From Botryllus schlosseri (lineage: Eukaryota), in the NCBI GenBank assembly GCA_051294905.1, contig CM119372.1:16370001-16434000 (forward strand): DNA of 64,000 nucleotides, read 5' to 3'. The translations under genes and the position numbers were made by a program. Numbering within the stretch: position 1 is the first letter of the stretch; each line of letters begins with the position of its first letter. The notes under the pieces were generated by a model. It saw nothing but the letters and a program-made list of their open reading frames with translations, searched no databases and was not told the DNA's origin. Positions 11,730 to 64,000 of this stretch are shown here, in pieces.

Positions 11730-13580
11730 GGATCCAAAAGAGAGGGTCTTTCTCGCCAGCACCATCGAGATGCTTTGACGACGGATATGTAATACGACCG
11801 TAAGGTGACCTACCTAGTCTTCAACCCCGCTTTTGTTTTTCTCTTCCATGCTATTCCGTTGATGCTGAGCGCCTAGCGCAGGGGTTCTCAACCTGGGGGG
11901 CGCGAGAAGCTCTCAGGGGGGGCGCGAGAAATTAACCACGTCTGTATGAATTCTGACGAAAAATGTGCTTCACAATCATTCTGAGAAGACGATTGTTAAA
12001 GATGAAACTTATTTCGTATTCAAGAAATCTCGCCAAATTCTAACTCCAGCATTCGCGCTCAACGGTGTATAGGCTGATTTCAACTTCATTTGAGCAAATT
12101 TTTGATATTCTTTGAAAATTTGGATCAATTCCCACGTGTAAGTCATTCATTACTTCATAGCTTTGCAGTAGCCTAAAGTTCGGTGCGCTGGGTAGCTGTT
12201 GTTAATAATTGGCGAACTGCTCTGCCTAAGACAGATTTAGATGCAATATAAGTTGCCCGGTTTCGCCCTCAATTAAACTACCCTAAATAAACACAATTTC
12301 TTCAATTCCAAAACCGATCGAATTTAGCATGTCAGTACAGAACGACGCCGTGCTCTCTGTAGTCACTACCGGCATTAGGATTTCTCAGTGCAACCTACCT
12401 TGAAATAATTTGATCTCCTGTTCAATGTTTTTTTGCTATTTTCAAACAAGTTTTGGGAAATTTGTCAGAAATGTTAAAGGCTCAACAACTGGAATGCGGA
12501 TTCAAACTTGGCGTAAGACATACCATATGTATACTACTAGATCAGGGAAGGGCAACCTGTATCTGTAGATGGGAATTTGTGCGGCCGTCGACACCTAATT
12601 CGATTAGTATGTGTTGGCATTCGTCGACATGCAAATTGAAATTACGAATTCACTCCAAAATTTTTGAGAGATTTCAACTAATCTTGAAATTTTCTTCACA
12701 CTCCACGCAATTCAACATTACCTCATTTTTCGATTTTAATATAGTAGCGCTCTTCTCACTCTTAGCCGGAATCGGAATCGTGCGCTCCGCACGAAAGAAA
12801 TTTGTTTATGGTACATTGGGCGATTTTAATATATTTCCACTACCGATACAATCGACTATCCTGATCGGGGGTCAAGAAATAACAGCATGCAACCAAGTGA
12901 CTGATAACATTTGGCCCATGCACCCGAAGATGCATTATCATTTATAACTTGCCCTAAATTTTCAAAAGCACTCTCTCAATGAACCCTACCGGTGTATCTG
13001 ATCACATGGGCTAAGAGAGGATAAATATTTGATAATATTATGTGATACTGCTACTATTAATTACGGAATTCATTCGTGAATCTGAAAAATTTTCGCGCTC
13101 GGCGCGACAATATGCAATCCCAGCATCTATTCATAACATTGCGACTCGCGATTTCGGTACGTACAAAAAAGCCTTTTGTTAAAAGTATATTCGTCCGGAC
13201 TCCGTAGTTCACCGGCAATGGATATGGACAGATTAACATAGGTATTTCGCGTCCAGTTAGTTCATTACGGCCATGCCCTGGAATGCGGCCTCAGGCTACA
13301 TAAGTAATCGAAATGGGCCGTGATTAGCAAAAAGGTTGCCTACCTCTGTATTAGATGATGTTCTCTTTTTGACATGACGAAAAGTGTGTGGGGGGGTCAG
13401 GGGGCGCAATATTTTCGACCATCCCCAAGGGGGGCGCATGTCCAAAAAGGTTGGGAACCGCTGGCCTAGCGGGATAGTTGCGGATACCAGTTTTCGAGAC
13501 TCTGGTTTGACCAAGCCGGGGATCTAACCCACGACCTACCGATCGAGGAGCCTGAAGCATCACCATTACGCTATGTCGCT
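11730..13580 (-). mobile_element. tRNA-derived SINE (family 3) split by a nested MITE
   Basis: The two halves match the intact copy at 34252-34532 once 11879-13463 is removed. Confidence 0.75.
11879..13463. mobile_element. hAT-type MITE containing a second MITE (12543-13348)
   Basis: TIR caggggttctcaacc/ggttgggaaccgctg, TSD gcctagcg; inner element TSD ta(c/t)tagat. Confidence 0.85.
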
Positions 13581-13761
13581 TTGTTAATGGGGCGCGCATA
13601 TTCGGCACGAAATTAGAATCTGTCATTCTGTCAACGTGAAACTGGTGAACGTGACTTCTCACGCGACTTATAAATTATAACATCTTTTTCATTGTACGTA
13701 TAGCATATAGGCATAGTTCGGCTACTTTGTGTGGAGGGGAAAGCAAAAGACTTCAGTGAAA

Positions 13762-14037
13762 ATGAGTGCGCAGGTATCCGTCTACGTCGAATACTGTGGC
13801 AGCTGAGGTTACGAAGTATTCTTCGATGCGCTTAAGGCCGCGATAAAGAAAGATCTTCCGAACATTCAGGTCACTGGGAATGTCGGTCGGCTTGGTTCAT
13901 ACGAACTGTTCATTAATGGGGAATTAATCTACTCAAAGTTGCAAACGGACGATTTCCCAGCCGACAAAGATGTCATCGACGCTATCAGGCATTTATGCGA
14001 ACGCGGGGAGGTCGTTCCTATTGATGGATGCCAGTAA
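13762..14037 (+). CDS. SELENOW2: Selenoprotein W2/MIEN1-like Rdx-family selenoprotein, 91 aa, Sec at codon 15 (TGA 13804-13806), intronless CDS
   Basis: MSAQVSVYVEYCGSUGYEVFFDALKAAIKKDLPNIQVTGNVGRLGSYELFINGELIYSKLQTDDFPADKDVIDAIRHLCERGEVVPIDGCQ*. Has the Rdx hallmarks VEYCxxUGY, GRxGS(F/Y)ExxING, SKLxxxxFP. The frame stays open and homologous for 76 codons past the TGA. Confidence 0.93.
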
Positions 14038-14255
14038 ACAACGGCACCGTATCCTTACATAACAAGTCAATGCTTCAACGTCACTTGGTTTCTGACTTTG
14101 GTAATGTGGTCGTATCTCAATTAAGTCGCATTGCGCAGATCAGCACATCATTGTCCACTTGCAGGGGACATATTCGGATATACCACATGCTAGGCCTGTT
14201 GAACATTAAAGTATAGGGAGTACTGGAACCTTTTTATGGAGTCATTAGTCATCAC

Positions 14256-16230
14256 TAGGGCGATTTTATTGACAAGTCAAAATAAGTCAACATTTTTTCG
14301 AAATTGTAGCGTTAGGTTAAAAAATTGTCAAAATTGATCACAAAGTCAAAAAAAATTTGCCACCTGTATTTCGTTTGTATCGTAAATGTTTGCACTGTCG
14401 GTGAACTTATCACTTGACATTTCACAAGTTTTAGCCTACTTTATAGGCCTACAGTTGTAGACGGCCCATTATTTGCTTATAGTGAATCATAAACGGCCAA
14501 ATGAAGCAAGTAGGTTGACATGGTGTTATGCTGAATGTACTGCAATATCCTAGCCGAGGCTAAACTGCGTGGGCATTGGTTCTTATATCAAGAAGCGCAT
14601 GATGAAAAATTGCGATGTAGACCAGTGGTTCTCAACCTTTTTCACCTCGCGGACCGGTAAAATTTCATAAAATGTCCTGGCGGACCGGTGAACTTTCAAA
14701 ATTGAAATGAAGCTAAAATCTAGAGTTGAAACCGTTTTTTGCAATTATATGGTGCTAGCGAGTGACATTTAGCGGGTTATGATCGTAATTAATTATCTTC
14801 ATGATGGCATCCATGTGATTTTATGGTAGTCAGTCTGCTGAGTGGAGGTAAAATTGCCTCGTCCAGATAAACGTGGCACCGTCGAGAGTCGTTTATAGTC
14901 TCTCGCGCCGAATGCCATGGGTTTAACCGACCCCGCCAACTCGAAAAATATTCTTCTCTTTGATAATATCGAGAGAAGAATCGTTTCGGAGTCGAACCAA
15001 GCACCTTGTCGTGCTACCTTGATCATGACCCACTGCCACCGGGCGCATAAGCTACTCCGGCAACTACGGATACAATGCGTGCCGCAAGAAAACACCATAC
15101 AGCAACTATAGAGAGTTTATGTAGCTTAATCGCGCCAATAGCGAAAATTTCCGATTACTCATGACTGAATCGGTTTTCTCGCTGCCGAATTTTTAGCACA
15201 CCTTTCAGAGTCCCATGTTAGCCTAAACTTCATCATGTGTTGGTATGTCGTGGCGCGGTAATGGCTGACGCCGAAATGCCTATTTCCATAACTCATGCGT
15301 ATTTCCCGGAGAAGGACACCTAATAAGCAAGACATTTAGTGACAATAAATCGCCTAAAGCGCGAAAAGAAATTGAAAAATGTTGGAAAAAGTTTCAAAAT
15401 AATACTTGCAAAATAATTTTGGGTTCTTTTCAAGCTCGGCCTCTCTCCAATCGGGTGGTTTGAGGTGCCCAGTTACGGTCCTGCTGCGCTGTTTAGCGAG
15501 GAGTCAGCTCGTACCTGTTCTGTACTTGTCGCTCACATGTTGTCAAATGACACGCCTTGAACTTTAAGTCAAAACGAACATGTTACCAGCCCTAATGTAA
15601 CCTCGCGAAGTTTTGAGTCAGTTTAAAATTTGATGTTTTATTTATTTTATCAATGGACAAGCCTTCATCATTGCATCTTGAATTTAAGGTATAGAATTGA
15701 AATATACCTGGCGGACCGGTAGGAATGTCGTCGCGGACCGGCACCGGTCCGCGGACCGGCGGTTGAGAACCACTGATGTAGACAACATTGTCAGAATGAA
15801 GCAAGACGCTGTGTCACCAGCAGTGTACGCACAACCTTTATGTTGCCAGCCAACAACTGCTGCTGTTGAACGTTCTTTCTCCATTCTTGGCAAGCTACTT
15901 AGTAAGGACTTCCACCAGAGAATGTAGGAAAGTATCCTTCGCTGTACTAGAACAACTTGTTATTATTACTACCATAAGGCGTGATGTAACTACTGGAATT
16001 CTTCGTAGGTCCAGATTTCAATAAAATAAAGTTTTTTCATGTAAAATGTTTTCAGTTTTTAAGTCAGAAATTTTTTTCAGGTCAAACTACTTCGTGAGGA
16101 CAGTCAGCTCTATAACCAGAAATGAAGATAAGTAGTGCAATTCTAGCCTTTTGTAGGAAAACACCTAATTTACTTACATGAAGTCAAAAAATGTCAAAAT
16201 TTTGATTTTTAGGTAAAAAAAATCGCCCTA
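14256..16230 (+). mobile_element. Deleted hAT transposon in the selenoprotein 3' region
   Basis: TIR tagggcgatttt, perfect TSD gtcatcac (14248-14255, 16231-16238). hAT dimerisation-domain remnant QPTTAAVERSFSILGKLL at ~15845-15900. Confidence 0.92.
14623..15775. mobile_element. hAT (Buster/Charlie-type) MITE nested in 14256-16230
   Basis: TIR cagtggttctcaacc, TSD atgtagac. Confidence 0.92.
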
Positions 16231-16691
16231 GTCATCACCAGTGATCCGGGAAATGTATTCTGTTTCGTCACTATTGTCGCGTTTGATGCGAGACGCGTCT
16301 ACATTTAATCCATATTCTTCAGCAGGGGTGTGCTGTGCAACGTTATTTGCGTTTTAATATTTTCGCCTTGTGTTATCCTACTTTATAAAAGTTCAAACAT
16401 GCCAGACTGAGTTAAATTGGAAACCCATTTCCCATTAAAAATTGACATTTTCTTCGTGTATTTGTCCTTCATGTTTAGGCGGCATTGGCACCGACTCGTG
16501 TAGCCTAGCAACGCCTGATACACATACACACGATCTGTGCATACAGGTTTACCTTACACACAAATTCTTGGTTACTTAACGTTATCTTGTACATAATTAA
16601 TCAAGTCTTTGACTGCATAAGCATTCGCCATTGGATTGAGATTGTCGACAGGTTGCAAGTATATGTCTGTTGCGATCGCTATTTTAAGTTT

Positions 16692-16764
16692 AATTGGGTA
16701 TTTCATGACGGCATCGTTGCAAATCGCTACTCCAGCGCTACCTGAGACTATAACATACTCAGTT
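16692..16764 (+). promoter_or_regulatory. Candidate eukaryotic SECIS element
   Basis: Helix I aattgggtat/atactcagtt (10 bp including GU pairs); ATGA core 16705-16708; helix II ggcatcgttg/cagcgctacc (8 of 10 paired); apical AAA 16721-16723 following a 12-nt gap after ATGA; 3' TGAG 16743-16746; AATAAA at 16889. Confidence 0.75.
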
Positions 16765-17739
16765 TAAAGCCTATCTTGCGCATTAAATAGCAATTGCTGA
16801 AACTCGTGCATATACTTTATTATCAGCGTGTTGCTGTGAAAGAAAGACATGGAATGGAGTCGAGTTCGTTATTGTATATCAGCGATAAAATAAAAAAAAA
16901 AGATCCAAAAGACGGACTCGACATACATCATGTATGAGTGCCTTTTGCTAAGTTGAAATTTGTGAGCTGCGCTGCAATTTGAGACACTTCTGTTTATTGG
17001 CCAGGGCTCAAAAAACAATACAAAAGCGTCGTAAGTACGTGACATATAAAACAAAGCTTGTTTTACCACACCTGTTTCAAACATTTTATAGTCATTGTGT
17101 TAAACACATGCCTTTTTTGATAAAAATATGTTTGTACATTTTTGTGAATTAACACTACGTAAAAGTTTGGGGGATTTATTCAGATTGGAAGTTTTTTCTT
17201 CGTACTTCGCACGTTTTATGTGTCATTAGATTCTAAGTCCTAATATCGTTGCCCCTCCCGGCATTTCGTCGCCAGTACCTAGGACGTTCGGCTTCTACCA
17301 CTACTTTCACACCTATACTTAACATTCTGGAACAAGTTATTTATGTTTTACCCTTCTGATTTAAAAAAGTAGAAGGCATAAGTTTGCATGACTTTTAAGA
17401 GGAAAATTTTTCTAACCACCTAGTGAAATAGCCCCTGTACCACATAAATAAATATATTTACGAAGATTGCCCCTACTTGTAATATCATGTGTCAATATTC
17501 ATTTGCATTGGTCGCCACCCCGCTATCAAATCTACCAAAAACCGCAAACATAGAGGTCATATATAGGTTACGCGTCGTTTAGAACGCAAGTTTCACGTCT
17601 GAAGCCTGTCTGTGTCCATTAAGCGGGCGGATCTCAGGTCCGGACCATGCCTGGGGGTATTTGGTGAGCAGGTATCAGCTCCGGAGCATATCCGAATATA
17701 AATAGTGCACAGATATCAGGTCTGAAGGAATGTTTGGCG

Positions 17740-18585
17740 CATCACAAATATACACCAGACACGATATCCGAGTAGCAACACAGTCCGGACGCACCCCAGA
17801 CACGATGTCCGAATGGCAACACAGTCCGGACATAACACACCACAGACACGATATCCTGGTTGCAAAACAGTCCGAACACACCCAAGGCATGATGTCCGAG
17901 TGGCAAAACAGTCCGAACACCCAAGAAATGATTATAAACACGTTCTAGACACGATGCCGAGTGGCAACACAGTCCGAACACACCCCAGAAATGATGTCCG
18001 AACACACCCAAGACACGATGTCCGAGTGGCAAGACAGTCTGAACACACCCCAGGCATGATGTCCGAACACACCCAAGACACGATGTCCGAGTGGCAAGAC
18101 AGTCCGAACTCACCCCAGACACGATCTCCGAATGACAACACAGTCCGAACAAACCACAGGCTAGATTTCCGAACATACCCCAGACACGTTGTCCGAGGGG
18201 CAAAACAGTCGCCGAACTCACTCCAGACACGATCTCCGAATGGCAACACAGTCCGAACACACCCCAGGCATGATGTCCGAACACACCCCAGATACAATGT
18301 CCGAGGGGCAAAGCAGTCGCCGAGCTCACCCTAGACAAGATGTCCGAGTGGCAACACAGTCCTAACACATCCCACAAATGATGTCCGAACATGCTCTAGA
18401 CACGATGTCCGAGTGGCTAGACAGTCCGAGCACACCCCAGGCATGATGTGCGAATACACCCCAGACACGATGACCTAGGAGCAAATTATCCGAACTCACC
18501 CTAGACACCATTTCCGAATGGCAACACAGTCCGAACACACCCAAGACATGATGTCCGCAAACACACCAGACTCGATGTCCGAGCA
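17740..18585. repeat. Degenerate minisatellite, ~20/41-bp units (cacgatgtccgagtggcaacacagtccgaacacaccccaga)
   Basis: The gtccga/tccga core recurs about every 18-23 bp for ~850 bp. Confidence 0.92.
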
Positions 18586-42208: not shown

Positions 42209-45200
42209 AAGAACGTGATTTCCGGTAAGTTTTCGCAATGGCCCTGTAGCCACCGATATCAACATGAAACGCCTCGTGACTTGGTGCATATATTTTCAAG
42301 TTTTTTGATCTTCGCGGTCCTAGTAGTCGTAGGCAATTGGAGTTAGATTTTATGAAGATATATGGCCAAAAAGCACTGTATGATATCGATGTATACCATA
42401 ATAGTATTGTTGTACACTATAGGACGCCAGTAATCGTGTAATTGTTGGCTGCATCAGCAGTTGTTTCATAATTATTATTGCTACCTTTATCTCATTTTTT
42501 CAGCAATTTATCTGGTTCAATTAGAACCGAGATCAACTCCAGATTCGATTCCTACGTGTGAGAGATTTATGTAGACTTCTTATCGCCACCCAATCAAACA
42601 AGACACTGAAAACGACCCTGAAAAACGTGGGCTGTGCTGTAAGTCGGCATCTCAGGATTGGTGAATAATAATATCGGTCTGGTATAAAATGACCCTAGAT
42701 ATCAAAACCAGCCTGTCTCTAAAGAGACTGGTAATCTGTTTATTGCCACTATGCATGAATTAAGCATTTTCAGTAGTCACTAATCATGTGCACAGATGTC
42801 TCTTGTAACTGTGTGTTGACGTGGACAATGTTGCCGAATGGCAAATAGTTGTGGTCAGAATGACTTCGATTGTCGCTTGTCATTAACTAGCATTCAATAT
42901 GACACTATAGCAGGGACGGCCAACCCATGGCCCGCGGGCCAAATGTGGCCCGCGAGAAGGTTTTAGGTGGCGATGTAATTCTCGAAATTAGTTATAATGT
43001 CAGAAAAATCAATTACCCAGGTAATTAAGTATTTGTGAACTTGCAAGGCCAACCGAAAATTTGATTAGCCTGACTGGGAACTTTGAGATATTGATGACTA
43101 AAGTCTCAGTTCAGACGCATTGGCGTAGCCAGTACTTATCCACATTTTCGTAGATCTTCGTATATGACCACAAAGTATAATATTTCGTGGCAGATTTCTT
43201 TGACTTGATATTTTTCTTCGCACTTCCCGCGATTTATTGTCACTCGATTTCTTGATTATAGTCAGGGTTGCCATCGACATGGACCCAAAAATATGGACAG
43301 TCGAAAAATTAGATTTGCATTAAAAAAGCGTTTTCGTACATACTTTGTATTTATACGTGCCGTGACATATCACATCCCATACTTTTTGCCAGAAACAATC
43401 TGCTCCAGCAACTCCTTGTTATTAGAAAGTGCTTCATGGATCTCACGACAGCTAAGGTCTAGGTCAGTGGTTCCCAACGTGGGCGATATCGTCCCCTAGG
43501 GGGCGATTTGGCGGTTCAGGGGGGCGAAAATGACGAAGGGGGCGACAGGGGGGCGAAAATAGCGAAGGGGGCGATAGGGGGCGATGACGCATCAAAACGG
43601 CTGACCTTTTTTTTTTTTTTCTTAGTCAACCCACGGAAATTTAGTTACAAAAGTGTGTAAAATTTGACATCGAGACGAAAATTTGACCTTTTTTTTTAGT
43701 CAACCCGCCGGGGATTACGGTTTGTATGCATAACTAGCTTGTAGAGCAGTGGAAAAGAGTCGTTTCCGGTAAAGATCTTCATCCACTTGGTCTCCGGCTC
43801 AACCTTGCGGAACACATCATTTGGAATCTTCTTCAGCAGAGTGTTAACAGCCGAGACTTCATCAAACAACTCATCTTTCATTGCCATTGGAAAATCAATT
43901 TGCTTTGCCAACCCCTTCATTTCCTCGTACTCGATTGCTTGTTCTTTCAGCAGGATCCAGTTGATGTGCGTTGGATGCTTCTCAAATCGATGCCACTTGG
44001 TGATGTATTCCAAGGTAATGGTGTAGAACTCCTGGAAGCTCGCTTTGAGAACCTTAGCATGCTCTTCATCGACACTTTTTAGTAGTTCGCCTGTTGTTGC
44101 CCCGAAAAACCCTGAACACTGGCGTTGCAATATTTTGATCTTGAAAGATTCAATTATCTCTGCCAGTTCTGGAAATAATGCATTTGACTTTTGCAGTAAT
44201 AACAGTGGTTTATTAAAGAGCAAGAGAGCGCTGTGGAGGAATGATACGATGATCAGCGACTCTTCTTTTTTAGAGAAATCCTCCAATATTCTTGCTGAAT
44301 GTTTCAGCGAAAGAAAGTGCGCTTTGAGTGGTTCCCAGAGATCAATCCTTCGCTCGAGTAGGCTACAGCATCAAGTGTGGTCCAGCGAGTCGGCGTGTGA
44401 GTTGGTAGAGTCGAATATTTGATATCAAGTTCTTCACAGAAATGCTTGAGCCTCAGCGCCCTACCAGTTTGGCTTTTGAAGTGGCTACCAATCTTTAATA
44501 CGTTTGTTTCTATGTCAATTGTGAGGCGCCCTGATCCCTTCTCTGCTGCGTTATGCAACATATGAGCAGGGCAGCCGACTGGGATCAGATGCAATGTTTG
44601 CTCTTTGAGGCGAGAGAAGACGTTGTTTTTTCCACTATGCTGTGATCCTCCAAAATTCACTAGTGCATTATCGGCAGAAAAGAATGACAGCTGCTTCATG
44701 TCTAAGCCATTCATTCTCTTGAATAGAGGAGAGAATAAAGTTTGTGATCTGTGCCGAGGTCTCGCCTGGCATCGGTCGCAGGTCAAGAAGACGTACTCGC
44801 ACTCCAACTTTGGCGTTAAAGAATCTGATGACTAGAGGAAAAAGCTTCACCTCGTTATGATTAGAGGCGTCAACCGAGATGGAAAAAGGCTGTTCACCAA
44901 GTTCAGACAAAATCATTCTTTGAGCGTATGGGGCAAGAACTCCAATAACAATGCTTATAGTCTTGGTCCTGGCCGAAGCAAACTTCTTTGCGATGTTGGA
45001 ATCGGGGAATATTGCTTGAAACAATTGCGATGTGCAATCGTCGGTGAGGAATGATTGCTGGTGTTCGACAGTATGGAACGCCCAGGTACCCTCAGCAGCA
45101 GCTGCCTTGTAGTCTGTGGTCGTTGGTGCTGATCGACTTGTAAAAAAATTATTCATTGACTGGCTCGAATTAATCATTATTACACACTTCTTGTGTTTTT

Positions 45201-46159
45201 TGGTGTCGATGTGAGCCGAAATAGCGGTCTTTCCTATGGCCTCCAGGTTAATGTCACAATTGCAGATATTGCAATGTGCAAAACACTCGCCCTTCAAGCC
45301 AGGGCTTTGGAGCCGGAGCCCGGAGCCGGAGCCCCGGAGCCGTGCATTTTTACCGGAGCTGGAGCCGGAGCCGGAGCCGGAGCCACTTATTTGAGGGGTA
45401 GCTCCGGCTCCGACGTATTTCATAAGATGCTATTATATATGCAACAACCATATCTGCTGAATTCACATAATTCAACAGCAGGCCTTCGCGAAATTAAGAG
45501 TCTTTTCCTCTTTGGCGCTACGTTTTCCGACCAACCATATTCCTGGGTATTTAACAGCAGAACAGTCATATATTCAATGTTAAATTTTCGTACATGAGTG
45601 CCAAGGTATGCGAAATATGCCTGTGAATATGTGGGTATTCGGCATACCCGCAATTTCATCATCAGCATTACCTTGTTGGCCAATTGTACTGTTCGAAAAT
45701 AAGGATCACTATGTATTACGCGAAATGGGAGACAGGATAAAAACGTGATTTCGTTGCACATGTCGATATGACGAGCACGAGCCGAGAAATTCCATCTCAT
45801 CGTTGCTATGAATCGAATGAGCAAATACTCGTTCTTTCGTGATAGTTCTTTAATCGGGCCGTGAAATTGGACAGTGTTATTGAGTATGCAATCAGACATG
45901 CTAATTGGAATTCATTACTGCGCATGATCGTTAATTCACTCCAGTAAGGATTTTTCGAGCGTAAAAAGGGGATGGCAAAAGAGTAGCCCAAAACGCCGTT
46001 TCACTCAGCAAACAATTATCGCGGTGCGAGCTACTCAATGCGATGCAGGACCCCATGGTATTTTATGTTGGAGTCAAATTACTGATTTGATACGCGATTT
46101 CCAATTTGTAATCATCTGTTTCGTAAATTCATTCTTGATGTCTGCTTGATACTCTAGTA

Positions 46160-59149: not shown

Positions 59150-60300
59150 CTCCAGGGCATTGTGATTATGCTGCATACCAAATTTCATCACACATTTCAT
59201 GATGGAACAACTTTAAAACTAACGCAGTTCTATAGCAACTTTTGCCTAAATCTGTTTTCGGTAGCGTGTACATATACATAGTCAGATTTAATAACAGAAT
59301 TATCATGCTAATATGTGACTCCTCACCTTGAAACTAGGTACGTAGTTGTAGGACATTGTGATTATGCAGCATACCAAATTTCCTCACGCATTTCATAATG
59401 GAACAACTTTAAAACTAACGCGGTTCTACATCGACTTTTTGCGTACATCTGTTTTGCGTGGGGGGCGTATAGCACGTACCTATACATAGTCAACTTTAAC
59501 AACGGAATTACCATGCTTAACATTGATACCCAACTCGAAACTTGATACGTAGTTGTAGGACATTATGGTAATGCAACATGCTAAATTTCATCACACATCT
59601 AATGATGGAACACCTTTAAAACTAACGCAGTCGAATACCGACTTTTACGCATATCTGTTTTGCGTGAACATAGCAGATACCTATACATAGTCAATTTTAA
59701 TAGCAGAATTACCGTGTTAAACATTGAATTCCCACCTTGAAAGTTGGTACGCGGTTAAAGGAGATTATAACAATGCACCATACCAAATCCCATCACACAT
59801 TTCATGATGTAACACCTTTAAAACCAACGCAGTTCTATACAGACTTTTGGCTAAATCTGTTTTTCCGTAGCGTAGCACGTACCTATACATAGTCAACTTT
59901 AATAACGGATTTAGCATGTTAATAATCGACTCCCCACCTTGAAACTCGGTACGCAGTTGTAAGACATTATGACAATGAACCATGTCAAATTTTGTTACGC
60001 ATTTCATGATTGAACAACTTTAAAACTAACGCAGTTCCATACCGACTTTTGCGAGTGCGTAGCACGTACCTATATGCATACTCAACTTTCATAACGGAAT
60101 TACCGAGCTAAACATTGAATGCGCAACTTGAAGATTGGTTCACAGGTGTAGGGCAGTATGACAATGGAACACATCAAATTTCATCACACATTTCATGATG
60201 GAACACCTTTAAAACTAACGCAGTTCTATACCAACTTCGCGTGAATCTGTTTGCGGGAGCGTAGCACGTACCTATGCGTGATCAACTTTAGTGATGGAAT
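59150..60300. repeat. ~200-bp tandem satellite (about 6 units), mirrored at 63085-64000
   Basis: aatttcatcacacatttcatgatggaaca(a/c)ctttaaaactaacgcagtt recurs at ~59181, 59377, 59584, 59786, 59988, 60177. Confidence 0.9.
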
Positions 60301-63300
60301 TACATATGTAATTAAGTTTCAACACTTTTACAATGATTCGTCTTGCTTCCTATAACACCCCACTCGAGAAAATGCGTCGTAGGATATAGATGAAACTAGC
60401 ACCACTCATCAAGACCGCTGAAAACAGTACATTTCAACATTTAGTAGCAGTACATTTCTAGTAAAGTACGAGACGTGATGATTTCCGAGTGAGTTAAAAA
60501 GTAAGTATTGCAGGTATAGTTTACCTGAAAACCGAATACTCTGAAATAGAAGTAGATGCAGTGTAAATAGTTAATCACTTGATTAAGTTTAGTGCAAGCA
60601 GATAAAACCTATACTTGAGTAGTACAAAATGCACGAGTACTTCGCTATCGCCTCCCTCCACGTAATAAGTGTCTACGGTTTAAGACTGCTTTTACCGATA
60701 CTTGTCGGTTTCAGTTTTAGATAGAATTCGGAAACCAAATAATTTCATAAACATAAGCTAATTTAATGAATTTACTCGAATGTACTATGCCGCGCTGATA
60801 AGATTAATTATAATATACTTATCATGTTACAGCGATTTTTCTAGCGTAGAAATCTTTAAAATGTAGTAAGCAGACCAAATGAAGATATTCGTTGAGCTGA
60901 ATAAACATAAAAAATACTCTAGACTACTTTATCGGTACTTTACAGTTACAGTTTTAGATAAAATTTGTCCCTTTCACCTATAATTACAACTCCTCGCTAT
61001 CTAAACATGTTTAGAATATATTATTTGCGATGATACGAACCCGTGAAGTACTCAAGTTGCTTTTCGTAGGATATAGATGAAACTGACAACACTCACCAAG
61101 ACCAGTGATCCACTGAAAAAAGTACATTGTAGCAGTAAAGTCCTACTAAAGTACAAGAAGTAATGATTTCCCAGTTAGTTAAAAAGTAAGTATTGAGGTA
61201 TAGTTTGCTCGAAAAAGCGAAAAACTCTGACATAGAAGTAGATGCAGTGTAAATAGGTAATCACTTCATTAAGTATAGCGCAAGCAGGCCAAACCTATAC
61301 TTAAGTACTGCAAATGTACAAGTACTTCGCTATGTTCTCCCTCCACGTAAAAAGTGACTAGGTTTTAGAGTACTTTATCGGTACTCGACAGTTTCAGCGT
61401 TAGGTAAAATTTGGTAAGACTTTAAATTTTAAAGTAGTTTGAGCTTACGTTTGTATCACCCTGACAAGTAACATTATCAGACATGAAAATGATACTATCA
61501 CCGAATATAGAAGTTAACACGCGTCAATGTGCTTCGGAATTCACGAGAAATTGCTTACTAAGAGAAGTATATTGTTGTATACACAATAGTGGAGAGAATA
61601 TTTAAAATGTAGTAAGCAGGCCGATGGGTATTCGTTTAGTTGTATAGACATAAAAAACATTCCCGCGCGCTCTTAAACAAAACACTTCCTAACCCTACCA
61701 CCTAATACTAAGACGCGCGCGGGAATGTTTTTATGTCTATACAACTAAACGAATACCCATCGACCTGCTTACTACATTTTAAATATTCTCTCCACTATTG
61801 TGTATACAACAATATACTTCTCTTAGTAAGCAATTTCTCGTGAATTCCGAAGCACATTGACGCGTGTTAACTTCTATATTCGGTGATAGTATCATTTTCA
61901 TGTCTGATAATGTTACTTGTCAGGGTGATACAAACGTAAGCTCAAACTACTTTAAAATTTAAAGTCTTACCAAATTTTACCTAACGCTGAAACTGTCGAG
62001 TACCGATAAAGTACTCTAAAACCTAGTCACTTTTTACGTGGAGGGAGAACATAGCGAAGTACTTGTACATTTGCAGTACTTAAGTATAGGTTTGGCCTGC
62101 TTGCGCTATACTTAATGAAGTGATTACCTATTTACACTGCATCTACTTCTATTTCAGAGTTTTTCGCTTTTTCGAGCAAACTATACCTCAATACTTACTT
62201 TTTAACTAACTGGGAAATCATTACTTCTTGTACTTTAGTAGGACTTTACTGCTACAATGTACTTTTTTCAGTGGATCACTGGTCTTGGTGAGTGTTGTCA
62301 GTTTCATCTATATCCTACGAAAAGCAACTTGAGTACTTCACGGGTTCGTATCATCGCAAATAATATATTCTAAACATGTTTAGATAGCGAGGAGTTGTAA
62401 TTATAGGTGAAAGGGACAAATTTTATCTAAAACTGTAACTGTAAAGTACCGATAAAGTAGTCTAGAGTATCTTTATGTTTATTCAGCTCAACGAATATCT
62501 TCATTTGGTCTGCTTACTACATTTTAAAGATTTCTACGCTAGAAAAATCACTGTAACATGATAAGTATATTATAATTAATCTTATCAGCGCGGCATAGTA
62601 CATTCGAGTAAATTCATTAAATTAGCTTATGTTTATGAAATTATTTGGTTTCCGAATTCTATCTAAAACTGAAACCGACGAGTATCGGTAAAAGCAGTCT
62701 TAAACCGTAGACACTTATTACGTGGAGGGAGGCGATAGCGAAGTACTCGTGCATTTTGTACTACTCAAGTATAGGTTTTATCTGCTTGCACTAAACTTAA
62801 TCAAGTGATTAACTATTTACACTGCATCTACTTCTATTTCAGAGTATTCGGTTTTCAGGTAAACTATACCTGCAATACTTACTTTTTAACTCACTCGGAA
62901 ATCATCACGTCTTGTACTTTACTAGAAATTTACTGCTACTAAATGTTGAAATGTACTGTTTTCAGCGGTCTTGATGAGTGGTGCTAGTTTCATCTATATC
63001 CTACGACGCATTTTCTCGAGTGGGGTGTTATAGGAAGCAAGACGAATCATTGTAAAAGTGTTGAAACTTAATTACATATGTAATTCCATCACTAAAGTTG
63101 ATCACGCATAGGTACGTGCTACGCTCCCGCAAACAGATTCACGCGAAGTTGGTATAGAACTGCGTTAGTTTTAAAGGTGTTCCATCATGAAATGTGTGAT
63201 GAAATTTGATGTGTTCCATTGTCATACTGCCCTACACCTGTGAACCAATCTTCAAGTTGCGCATTCAATGTTTAGCTCGGTAATTCCGTTATGAAAGTTG

Positions 63301-64000
63301 AGTATGCATATAGGTACGTGCTACGCACTCGCAAAAGTCGGTATGGAACTGCGTTAGTTTTAAAGTTGTTCAATCATGAAATGCGTAACAAAATTTGACA
63401 TGGTGCATTGTCATAATGTCTTACAACTGCGTACCGAGTTTCAAGGTGGGGAGTCGATTATTAACATGCTAAATCCGTTATTAAAGTTGACTATGTATTG
63501 GTACGTGCTACGCTACGGAAAAACAGATTTAGCCAAAAGTCTGTATAGAACTGCGTTGGTTTTAAAGGTGTTACATCATGAAATGTCTGACGAAATTTGG
63601 TTTGGTGCATTGTTATTATGTCCTACAACCGCGTATCAACGTTCAAGGTGAGAATTTAATGTTTAGCATGCTAATTCTGTTATTAAAATTGACTATGTAT
63701 GGGTATATGCTATGTTCACGAAAAACAGATATGCGTAAAAGTTGGTATTCGACTGCGATAGTTTCAAAGGTGTTCCATCATTAGATGTGTGATGAAATTT
63801 AGCATGGTGAATTGCCATAATGTCCTATAACTACGTATCAAGTTTCGAGTTGGGATTCAATGTTAAGCATGGTAATTCCGTTATTAAAGTTGGTTATGTA
63901 TGGGTAGGCTACGTGCTATACGCTCCCACAAAACAGATGTACGCAAAAAGTCGATGTAGAGCCGCGTTAGTTATAAAGTTGTTCCATCATGAAATGTGTG
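59384..64000. repeat. Large inverted repeat (palindrome), arms >=2.3 kb, 33-nt spacer 61676-61708
   Basis: 61709-64000 is the reverse complement of ~59384-61675. Each arm also holds a diverged ~690-bp direct repeat (starts ~60377 and ~61065). Confidence 0.96.

What the first reader, a model, noticed from the sequence alone, without database searches (positions are those of the whole stretch)
13762..14037. Hidden selenoprotein gene (CxxU, UGA recoding) absent from the ORF track
Seen: ATG 13762, C-G-S-TGA-G-Y, then 76 further sense codons. Established: Rdx-family proteins (SelW, SelW2/MIEN1, SelT, SelH) carry CxxU/CxxC followed by GxFE(I/V)xxNG and SK..FP motifs. Inference: the TGA is read as selenocysteine, and standard pipelines would drop or truncate this gene.
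Basis: partly seen in the sequence, partly recalled or inferred. Interest (0 to 1): 0.8.

Follow-up and report, generated by a model that had tools for sequence, protein, structure and literature searches.

The report
Sea-squirt selenoprotein duplicate, transposon-displaced signal
This is a young extra copy of a well-known small antioxidant-type gene whose internal stop codon is likely read as selenocysteine; it is ordinary, except that two nested pieces of likely jumping DNA have pushed its predicted recoding signal 2 kb further away, so this copy may work poorly.

Summary
Observation confirmed; interpretation largely right but ordinary. 13762-14037 is an intronless Rdx gene (Pfam 2.5e-15; nearest solved relative human MIEN1) with C-G-S-UGA at the CxxU site: a SELENOW2-type gene. 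The genome has five such genes, all with TGA at that codon, plus tRNA-Sec and SepSecS. This copy is one of three local duplicates of a likely parent on another contig. It lies 2.9 kb after the UGA because nested repeats with 8-bp target duplications (1,975 and 1,153 bp) sit in the 3' UTR, carrying two AATAAA signals. Contigs from three studies (RNA by guess) carry a ~95%-identical form without the insertion; one recorded RNA run has a few reads. All three duplicates lack the parent's CaaX tail. Best reading: a live, weakly expressed selenoprotein locus whose reference haplotype is likely weakened (0.6); rival: decaying pseudogene (0.3). The scan already reported both sister copies. Sec insertion is not shown. 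Interest 0.2.

The parts
13669..13674 (+). TATAAA box, likely core promoter (altered in the L002 sister copy)
   Evidence: sequence; function inferred
13706..13761 (+). likely 5' UTR; contigs of two studies (X4, X6) begin at 13706, but an X1 contig runs on upstream to 13482 and beyond
   Evidence: table 8; start site inferred, weak (contigs cannot show a start)
13762..14037 (+). intronless SELENOW2/MIEN1-type Rdx coding sequence, 91 aa, ends DGCQ (no CaaX)
13804..13806 (+). in-frame TGA at the CxxU position (C12-G-S-U15), predicted Sec codon
14256..16230 (.). outer high-copy insertion, 1,975 bp with nested element (about 0.8 kb without), 12-bp terminal inverted repeats, identical 8-bp target duplication at 14248-14255 and 16231-16238; hAT-like non-autonomous element (class recalled from the 8-bp TSD, no transposase tested)
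14623..15775 (.). inner high-copy insertion, 1,153 bp, 15-bp terminal inverted repeats, 8-bp target duplication at 14615-14622 and 15776-15783; recent (two other copies 99% alike at its end); site is empty in the L002 copy
15344..16025 (+). two AATAAA hexamers (15344, 16020) brought in by the insertions, upstream of the SECIS: possible premature polyadenylation
   Evidence: use not tested
16455..16545 (.). short dispersed repeat (about 90 bp) before the SECIS, where the insertion-free contigs stop being unique
16697..16754 (+). SECIS candidate: AUGA core at 16705, AAA in the apical loop, 3' GA at 16744-16745; helix II 8 of 10 pairs with a private A>C at 16738; Rfam SECIS_1 17.9 bits (gathering 35)
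16782..16894 (+). ATTAAA (16782, shared with both sisters) and AATAAA (16889) after the SECIS: likely native polyadenylation signals
   Evidence: inferred

Best explanation
This is an intronless duplicate of the animal's SELENOW2-type gene, whose in-frame UGA is likely decoded as selenocysteine through a predicted SECIS at 16697-16754, giving a predicted 91-residue thioredoxin-like CxxU thiol/selenol oxidoreductase without the parent's lipid-anchor tail. Shown: the ORF, family, CxxU position, paralogues, SECIS-like element, insertions, Sec machinery genes. Inferred: (1) a parent gene (L004) gave rise to a copy on this chromosome, which lost the CaaX tail by an early stop and then duplicated locally into L003, L002 and this one; (2) the locus is transcribed at low level, mostly from a haplotype without the 2-kb insertion, where UGA-to-SECIS would be about 0.9 kb as in the parent; (3) the reference haplotype would need a 2.9-kb UGA-to-SECIS span through two added poly(A) signals and has a weaker SECIS helix, so it likely makes less full-length protein, with the rest ending as a 14-residue peptide; (4) the protein likely acts as a soluble rather than membrane-bound redox enzyme.
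For: [quoted passage not shown] 5 of 5 Rdx genes of the genome have TGA at this codon; among 150 library relatives my pattern read the aligned residue in 81: 45 W, 34 C, 2 other, none found in 69 (W is probably UGA mistranslated, my inference). tRNA-Sec with TCA anticodon in 2 of 3 loci over the Rfam cut-off; SepSecS exons. SECIS region found only behind the three C2 copies; it differs from L002 at 2 of 64 sites against 222 of 1,697 in other non-coding parts (p 0.008; 0.022 against unique parts only). dN/dS against L003 0.33 (p 0.002), against the parent 0.33 (p 6e-5). UGA-to-SECIS 2,901 nt is inside the 207-5,207 nt range of mammals (PMC3316567, passage). Contigs of X1, X4, X6 (three studies, RNA by guess) cover the CDS; differences from the window 1/160, 7/125, 8/180, 19/408 against 9, 12, 20, 39 for L002 and 24, 25, 38, 82 for L003 in the same spans; X1 and X6 contigs join 14193 to 16228, skipping the insertion, with ends that are not GT-AG. 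X24, on record as RNA, covers the CDS at depth 0.4-3 with no variant listed at the TGA.
Against: The SECIS scores 17.9 bits, half of Rfam's gathering score, was missed in a 5-kb search and its minimum-energy fold is not the SECIS helix (forced helix -2.4 against -12.6 kcal/mol for the parent). Window against L002: dN/dS 0.80, not different from 1 (p 0.6); constraint on the window's own branch is not significant (5 non-synonymous changes, 9.3 expected, p 0.09-0.13). Raw RNA: 2 of 4 runs (X23, X19) have no read on the CDS, and X21's five reads carry the L003 letter at 13803 and fit only in part, so probably come from L003. The transcribed-looking form differs by about 5% in CDS and 5' part and about 10% in the 3' UTR, so it may be an unassembled fourth copy rather than an allele, and no laid contig bridges CDS and SECIS. 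X1, X4, X6 are RNA only by the tool's guess.
Confidence: 0.6

Rival explanations
1. A decaying duplicate (young pseudogene): the UGA was a Sec codon in the ancestor but in this copy now acts as a stop, because the SECIS is weakened and cut off by transposon-borne poly(A) signals; the insertion-free transcripts come from a related copy missing from the assembly.
For: Private helix-breaking change in the SECIS; nested insertions, the inner one recent; dN/dS 0.80 against L002; branch test not significant; almost no raw RNA reads; contigs 5-10% different from the reference; short selenoproteins, SelW among them, often leave pseudogenes (PMC3316567, passage).
Against: No frameshift or extra stop; all family-invariant residues kept (C12, G16, E48, S58, K59, F65, P66), whereas the sister L002 has F65S and G13R; TATA box intact; SECIS core and AAA intact and more conserved than its flanks; a DNA search of the assembly finds no fourth copy.
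Confidence: 0.3
2. The UGA is read through without a SECIS (leaky stop or a local recoding stem), inserting Trp, Cys or Arg, as proposed for insect SPS1-UGA.
For: Precedent in PMC4561486 (passages); the SECIS here is weak.
Against: A SECIS-like element with intact core is kept in all three local copies and is under apparent constraint; the genome has Sec machinery. I did not test for a stem-loop beside the UGA.
Confidence: 0.04
3. The organism uses a nuclear code with UGA as an ordinary sense codon, or the TGA is a sequencing error or is spliced out.
For: None found.
Against: TGA recurs at the same codon in 5 of 5 paralogues on three contigs; tRNA with TCA anticodon is of the Sec type; single contig pieces run across the codon without a joint; SECIS elements are present.
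Confidence: 0.01

Closest known systems
SELENOW2 (SelW2) branch of the Rdx family (invertebrates, cyclostomes, fish, amphibians; PMC13134290 section 14, read whole section; PMC3316567, passages)
   Same: Rdx domain, CxxU with UGA, 3' SECIS, lineage-specific duplications (tandem SelW2a/b in zebrafish, SelW2c in percomorphs) are all described; that paper places all invertebrate members of the SELENOW2/MIEN1 group in this branch.
   Different: This copy and its two sisters lack the C-terminal CaaX that the parent here has; SECIS displaced by nested insertions. I had no named SELENOW2 sequence in hand, so the branch assignment rests on similarity to MIEN1-named proteins plus the paper's rule.
Human MIEN1 / C17orf37 / Rdx12 (PDB 2LJK; PMC3527542, passages)
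   Same: Best solved-structure match by sequence (E 5.5e-18); same secondary-structure order; top named library hits are MIEN1-annotated.
   Different: MIEN1 has CxxC, an N-terminal extension and a prenylated CVIL tail; this has CxxU, no extension, no CaaX.
SELENOW (SelW1); Ciona SelW1/SelW2 (PMC2874816, table 1 passage and section 8)
   Same: Same fold family and CxxU; Ciona has two SelW genes, and the ORF of its SelW1 lies in one exon, like the single-exon ORFs here.
   Different: This genome's own SelW1-like gene is L005 (38% identity, E 7e-12) whereas the L004 gene is much closer (52%, E 3e-32).
Non-autonomous hAT-type DNA transposons / MITEs (recalled)
   Same: Short terminal inverted repeats, 8-bp target duplications, hundreds to thousands of candidate copies.
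   Different: No transposase was sought; family not named.

Membership tests
Rdx (SelW/SelT/SelH) family | Match to Pfam PF10262 above the curated cut-off | tested here: met
   56.8 bits against 22.6, residues 7-76
Rdx (SelW/SelT/SelH) family | CxxU/CxxC after strand 1 | tested here: met
   C12-G-S-U15 after predicted strand 6-11
Rdx (SelW/SelT/SelH) family | [quoted passage not shown] | tested here: met
   AlphaFold2 model E6-11 H18-31 E36-41 E47-51 E54-58 H68-81, pLDDT 90.9; no fold-library comparison was obtained
SELENOW2/MIEN1 branch | Closer to MIEN1/SELENOW2 than to SELENOW1 | tested here: met
   PDB E 5.5e-18 against 0.0014; 52% to L004 against 38% to L005; G42, F65, P66 shared with 90% or more of 25 aligned rows, absent from L005's pattern
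SELENOW2/MIEN1 branch | Supported placement in a tree with named SELENOW2, MIEN1 and SELENOW1 | tested here: inconclusive
   25-row tree: window+L002 96/93, but deeper forks weak and L005 on a long branch; no named SELENOW2 rows
SELENOW2/MIEN1 branch | C-terminal CaaX (common, defining for MIEN1 localisation, not for the family) | tested here: not met
   Ends DGCQ; parent ends CNIL; Cys at -4 in 60 of 150 library relatives, 11 of the top 22
Eukaryotic selenoprotein gene | In-frame UGA aligned to Cys/Sec of homologues | tested here: met
Eukaryotic selenoprotein gene | SECIS with AUGA/GA core and apical AA downstream on the same strand | tested here: inconclusive
   Core and AAA intact, conserved in sisters, but 17.9 bits (gathering 35) and helix II 8/10; the parent's clean element also scores only 22.2
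Eukaryotic selenoprotein gene | SECIS on the same mRNA as the UGA | tested here: inconclusive
   Contigs run from the proximal UTR across the insertion to about 16519 and enter a repeat; none bridges to 16697
Eukaryotic selenoprotein gene | Sec machinery in the genome | tested here: met
   tRNA-Sec, SepSecS; SBP2, eEFSec, PSTK and SPS2 not searched
Eukaryotic selenoprotein gene | Selenocysteine in the protein | not testable with these tools
   needs 75Se labelling, mass spectrometry or ribosome profiling
hAT-type non-autonomous transposons | Terminal inverted repeats and 8-bp target duplication | tested here: met
   Both elements 8/8; among 18 other loci of the outer family 7 gave both ends, with flank matches of 8, 8, 7, 7, 6, 3 and 1 of 8
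hAT-type non-autonomous transposons | Cognate hAT transposase element | not tested
   not searched

The most novel reading that the evidence does not exclude
A naturally segregating transposon switch on a selenoprotein gene: nested DNA elements between stop codon and SECIS turn selenocysteine insertion down (by premature polyadenylation), and a common haplotype has regained the short 3' UTR by excision of the element. The insertion-free contigs have exactly 61 letters across the junction, the number expected if both target copies plus two bases were left behind through the 4-base overlap shared by the element's two ends, against about 51-52 for a never-inserted site (letters not seen). The product would be a soluble, anchor-less SELENOW2 variant in a three-gene ascidian cluster.
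Probability: 0.12. Interest if true: 0.5.

Novelty: new member of a known kind. Interest (0 to 1): 0.2.

Why it matters
Mostly an annotation gain: a selenoprotein gene that standard calling drops, in a genome with five Rdx selenoprotein genes of which three form a young cluster. If the details hold, the cluster is a small natural experiment in how duplicated selenoprotein genes live or die through their 3' UTR (SECIS distance, added poly(A) signals, helix decay) and in what SELENOW2 does without a prenyl anchor. It brings no new recoding mechanism or protein family.

Tried and rejected
Rfam search of 13000-18000 and of the whole window at gathering level found no SECIS; it appeared only through the sister copy and a 251-base search. 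A hairpin with a UGAC/GAU look at about 14098-14170, read by eye, was rejected: no preceding A, irregular helix, the motif is not kept in L003. Word-indexed homologue search found nothing at E 1e-10 (2 candidates). No RNA holder on record was listed by the run search. The SECIS region had contig cover only in X6 (depth about 2.7) and none in X1, X4, X13; not used as evidence, since a hole proves nothing, the 88% threshold could drop a diverged allele, and a repeat precedes it. The loose end at 16544 lies at that repeat's edge and was dropped as uninformative. Splicing as the cause of the 14193-16228 joint was rejected (ends not GT-AG, 61 other letters between). Retroposition as the origin of the three local copies: not supported for window against L002, whose similarity runs in pieces from about 11.2 kb to 20.5 kb; undecided for parent to cluster, since the parent's ORF is intronless too. 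Whether the outer element was inherited by window and L002 together or inserted twice is unresolved: 15% divergence against 8-14% in flanks, 9 of 10 other copies match its left half better by identity, 1 of 10 its right half, and one other copy has the very same target sequence. The bacterial promoter scan was not applicable. No fold-library comparison of the model was obtained. Literature searches (listings only, apart from the five papers read in part) showed no paper on this cluster or on transposons displacing a SECIS; supplements (Ciona gene structures, SELENOW trees) were not opened and could bear on that.

Full report
Observation. The ORF is as described: ATG 13762, C12-G-S, TGA at 13804-13806, 76 sense codons (G-Y included), TAA 14035-14037; 91 residues when TGA is read as U. 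It matches Pfam Rdx at 56.8 bits, E 2.5e-15. Of 115 stop-to-stop frames of 75 aa or more in the window, only its post-TGA part passes a Pfam cut-off, so the gene stands alone among repeats and is not a chance reading.

What protein. The nearest solved structure by sequence is human C17orf37/MIEN1 (E 5.5e-18), far ahead of mouse SelW (0.0014). A full HMMER scan gave 230 relatives at E up to 0.001, the best at about 40-46% identity; of 9 top hits looked up, the 3 with names are MIEN1 of a bug, an ant and bats. [quoted passage not shown] PMC13134290 section 14 (read whole) puts all invertebrate members of this group in the SELENOW2 branch. The host is probably a tunicate: the 495-Mb genome has GH6-domain genes over the Pfam cut-off (that these mark tunicates among animals is recalled), and earlier scan notes say sea squirt.

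Paralogues. The genome holds five Rdx matches, all intronless over the match and all with one TGA at the same codon: this one; L002, 91 kb downstream (82% aa); L003, 201 kb upstream (76%); L004 on contig 1 (51%), the likely parent; and L005 on contig 15, SelW1-like (39%). A DNA search finds no further copy in the assembly. L004 ends in CNIL, a CaaX box; the three clustered copies stop six residues earlier at CQ, and the DNA alignment suggests a short insertion carrying the stop, with parent-like codons just beyond it (weak alignment, inferred). Cys at -4 occurs in 60 of 150 library relatives.

Sec machinery and SECIS. tRNA-Sec (three loci over the Rfam cut-off, two confirmed by ARAGORN with TCA anticodon) and six SepSecS exons are present. 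L005 and L004 have SECIS_1 matches of 32.5 and 22.2 bits. The window's SECIS was missed in a 5-kb search and found through L002: 16697-16754, 17.9 bits, with AUGA at 16705, AAA eleven bases past the core and the 3' GA. Its 5' half resembles the parent's. Helix II pairs 8 of 10, against 9 in L002, 8 in L003 and 10 in L004; one break, at 16738, is private to the window. The region occurs only behind the three clustered copies and differs from L002 at 2 of 64 sites against 13% in other non-coding parts (p 0.008-0.022), which points to selection on it for at least part of the time since the two split. All these scores are under Rfam's gathering level of 35, so Rfam alone proves none of them.

What lies between. 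UGA-to-SECIS is 965 nt in the parent, 1,090 in L003, 2,901 here and 5,776 in L002. Here the excess is a 1,975-bp element (14256-16230; inverted ends, 8-bp target duplication) holding a 1,153-bp element (14623-15775; likewise). Both are high-copy (40 of 40 scored candidates matched, out of 2,112, 1,610 and 1,773); the inner one has two 99% copies, so is recent. L002 has the outer family at the same site with the inner site empty; L003 has neither. The insertions add AATAAA at 15344 and 16020. Distance alone is not fatal: mammals span 207-5,207 nt (PMC3316567, passage). L003 also has an AATAAA before its SECIS, so such hexamers need not be used.

Selection. dN/dS is 0.33 against L003 (p 0.002) and the parent (p 6e-5) but 0.80 against L002 (p 0.6). 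Polarised with L003, the window's branch has about 5 non-synonymous changes (9.3 expected if neutral, p 0.09-0.13) and L002's about 11 (15.6 expected, p 0.14-0.18) (ambiguous codons shared out by hand). Family-invariant residues are all kept here; L002 has G13R and F65S. So the cluster was constrained, and recent constraint on this copy is plausible but unproven.

Expression. In four raw RNA runs (3-6% of each read), X23 and X19 have no read on the CDS; X21's five reads carry the L003 letter and fit only partly; X24 covers the CDS at depth 0.4-3, three reads sharing six differences in the 5' UTR and none listed at the TGA. Contigs from X1, X4, X6 (three studies; RNA only by the tool's guess) cover the CDS and are closer to the window than L002 or L003 are (for example 1 difference in 13801-13960 against 9 and 24); X13 (kind unknown) has a 545-base contig with 9 differences. 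X1 and X6 contigs join 14193 to 16228, that is without the insertion, not at splice signals, and go on to about 16519, where a short repeat begins. At five listed sites near the CDS end they carry the L002-like letter. They are therefore either a divergent, insertion-free allele of this locus or a close copy missing from the assembly. The 61 letters reported across the junction equal the count expected for an excision that leaves both target copies, but the letters were not shown, so this is a hint only.

Mechanism, committed. Ribosomes reading the mRNA would insert Sec at codon 15 when the SECIS is on the same transcript (established pathway, recalled: SBP2 binds the GA/GA core and recruits eEFSec with tRNA-Sec), giving a CxxU thioredoxin-like oxidoreductase, probably soluble for want of CaaX. 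I put Sec-by-descent at about 0.95, a live locus with a weakened reference haplotype at 0.6, and a dead copy at 0.3. Neither recoding, mRNA ends nor enzyme activity was shown.

Novelty. SELENOW2 selenoproteins, their lineage-specific duplicates and their misannotation are in print (PMC3316567, PMC13134290, PMC2874816; passages and named sections read). My four searches on this point listed no paper on this cluster. The scan has already reported both sister copies. New member of a known kind; interest 0.2.

Noticed in passing
L002 = G000:C2:16475176-16475448: Sister copy with G13R in the CxxU motif, F65S, an altered TATA box and its SECIS 5.8 kb from the UGA; looks further decayed in protein and promoter though its SECIS helix is better (9/10).
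   Followed up: partly
L004 = G000:C1:29917176-29917469, SECIS at L004 2498-2559: Likely parent SELENOW2 gene, intronless, CxxU, CaaX tail (CNIL), clean SECIS helix; probably also unannotated.
   Followed up: partly
L005 = G000:C15:18775074-18775331, SECIS at L005 2141-2206: Intronless SelW1-like gene with CGGU and a form-II-like SECIS (32.5 bits).
   Followed up: partly
L044 4198-5020 (G000:C2 about 16440200-16441020): About 80%-identical pieces of the DNA downstream of this gene (window 16537-16602, 16954-17255, 17322-17514) lie 6 kb beyond the window's end, with the SECIS-bearing part missing: possibly a relic of another duplicate.
   Followed up: partly
L018, L019, L020 (G000 C8, C13, C13): Three tRNA-Sec-like loci over the Rfam cut-off; ARAGORN accepts two. 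More than one tRNA-Sec gene is uncommon (recalled).
   Followed up: partly
window 17755-18583: Compound tandem array of 24/41/65-bp units that makes the 173-216 aa ORFs there; no Pfam match.
   Followed up: partly
window 59174-60303 and 63146-64000: Two arrays of a 202-bp tandem unit, about 75% alike.
   Followed up: no
window 43699-45911: Run of overlapping 130-250 aa open frames on both strands with no Pfam match; unexplained, perhaps repeat-derived.
   Followed up: partly
loci L028, L036, L037, L038, L041 and window 14248-14255: Target sites of the outer element look alike (near-palindromic GT.AT.AC-type 8-mers), suggesting a target preference.
   Followed up: no
G000:C9:14998190-15068854 (L043): Cluster of at least three GH6-domain open frames, two in frames of over 500 aa.
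   Followed up: no
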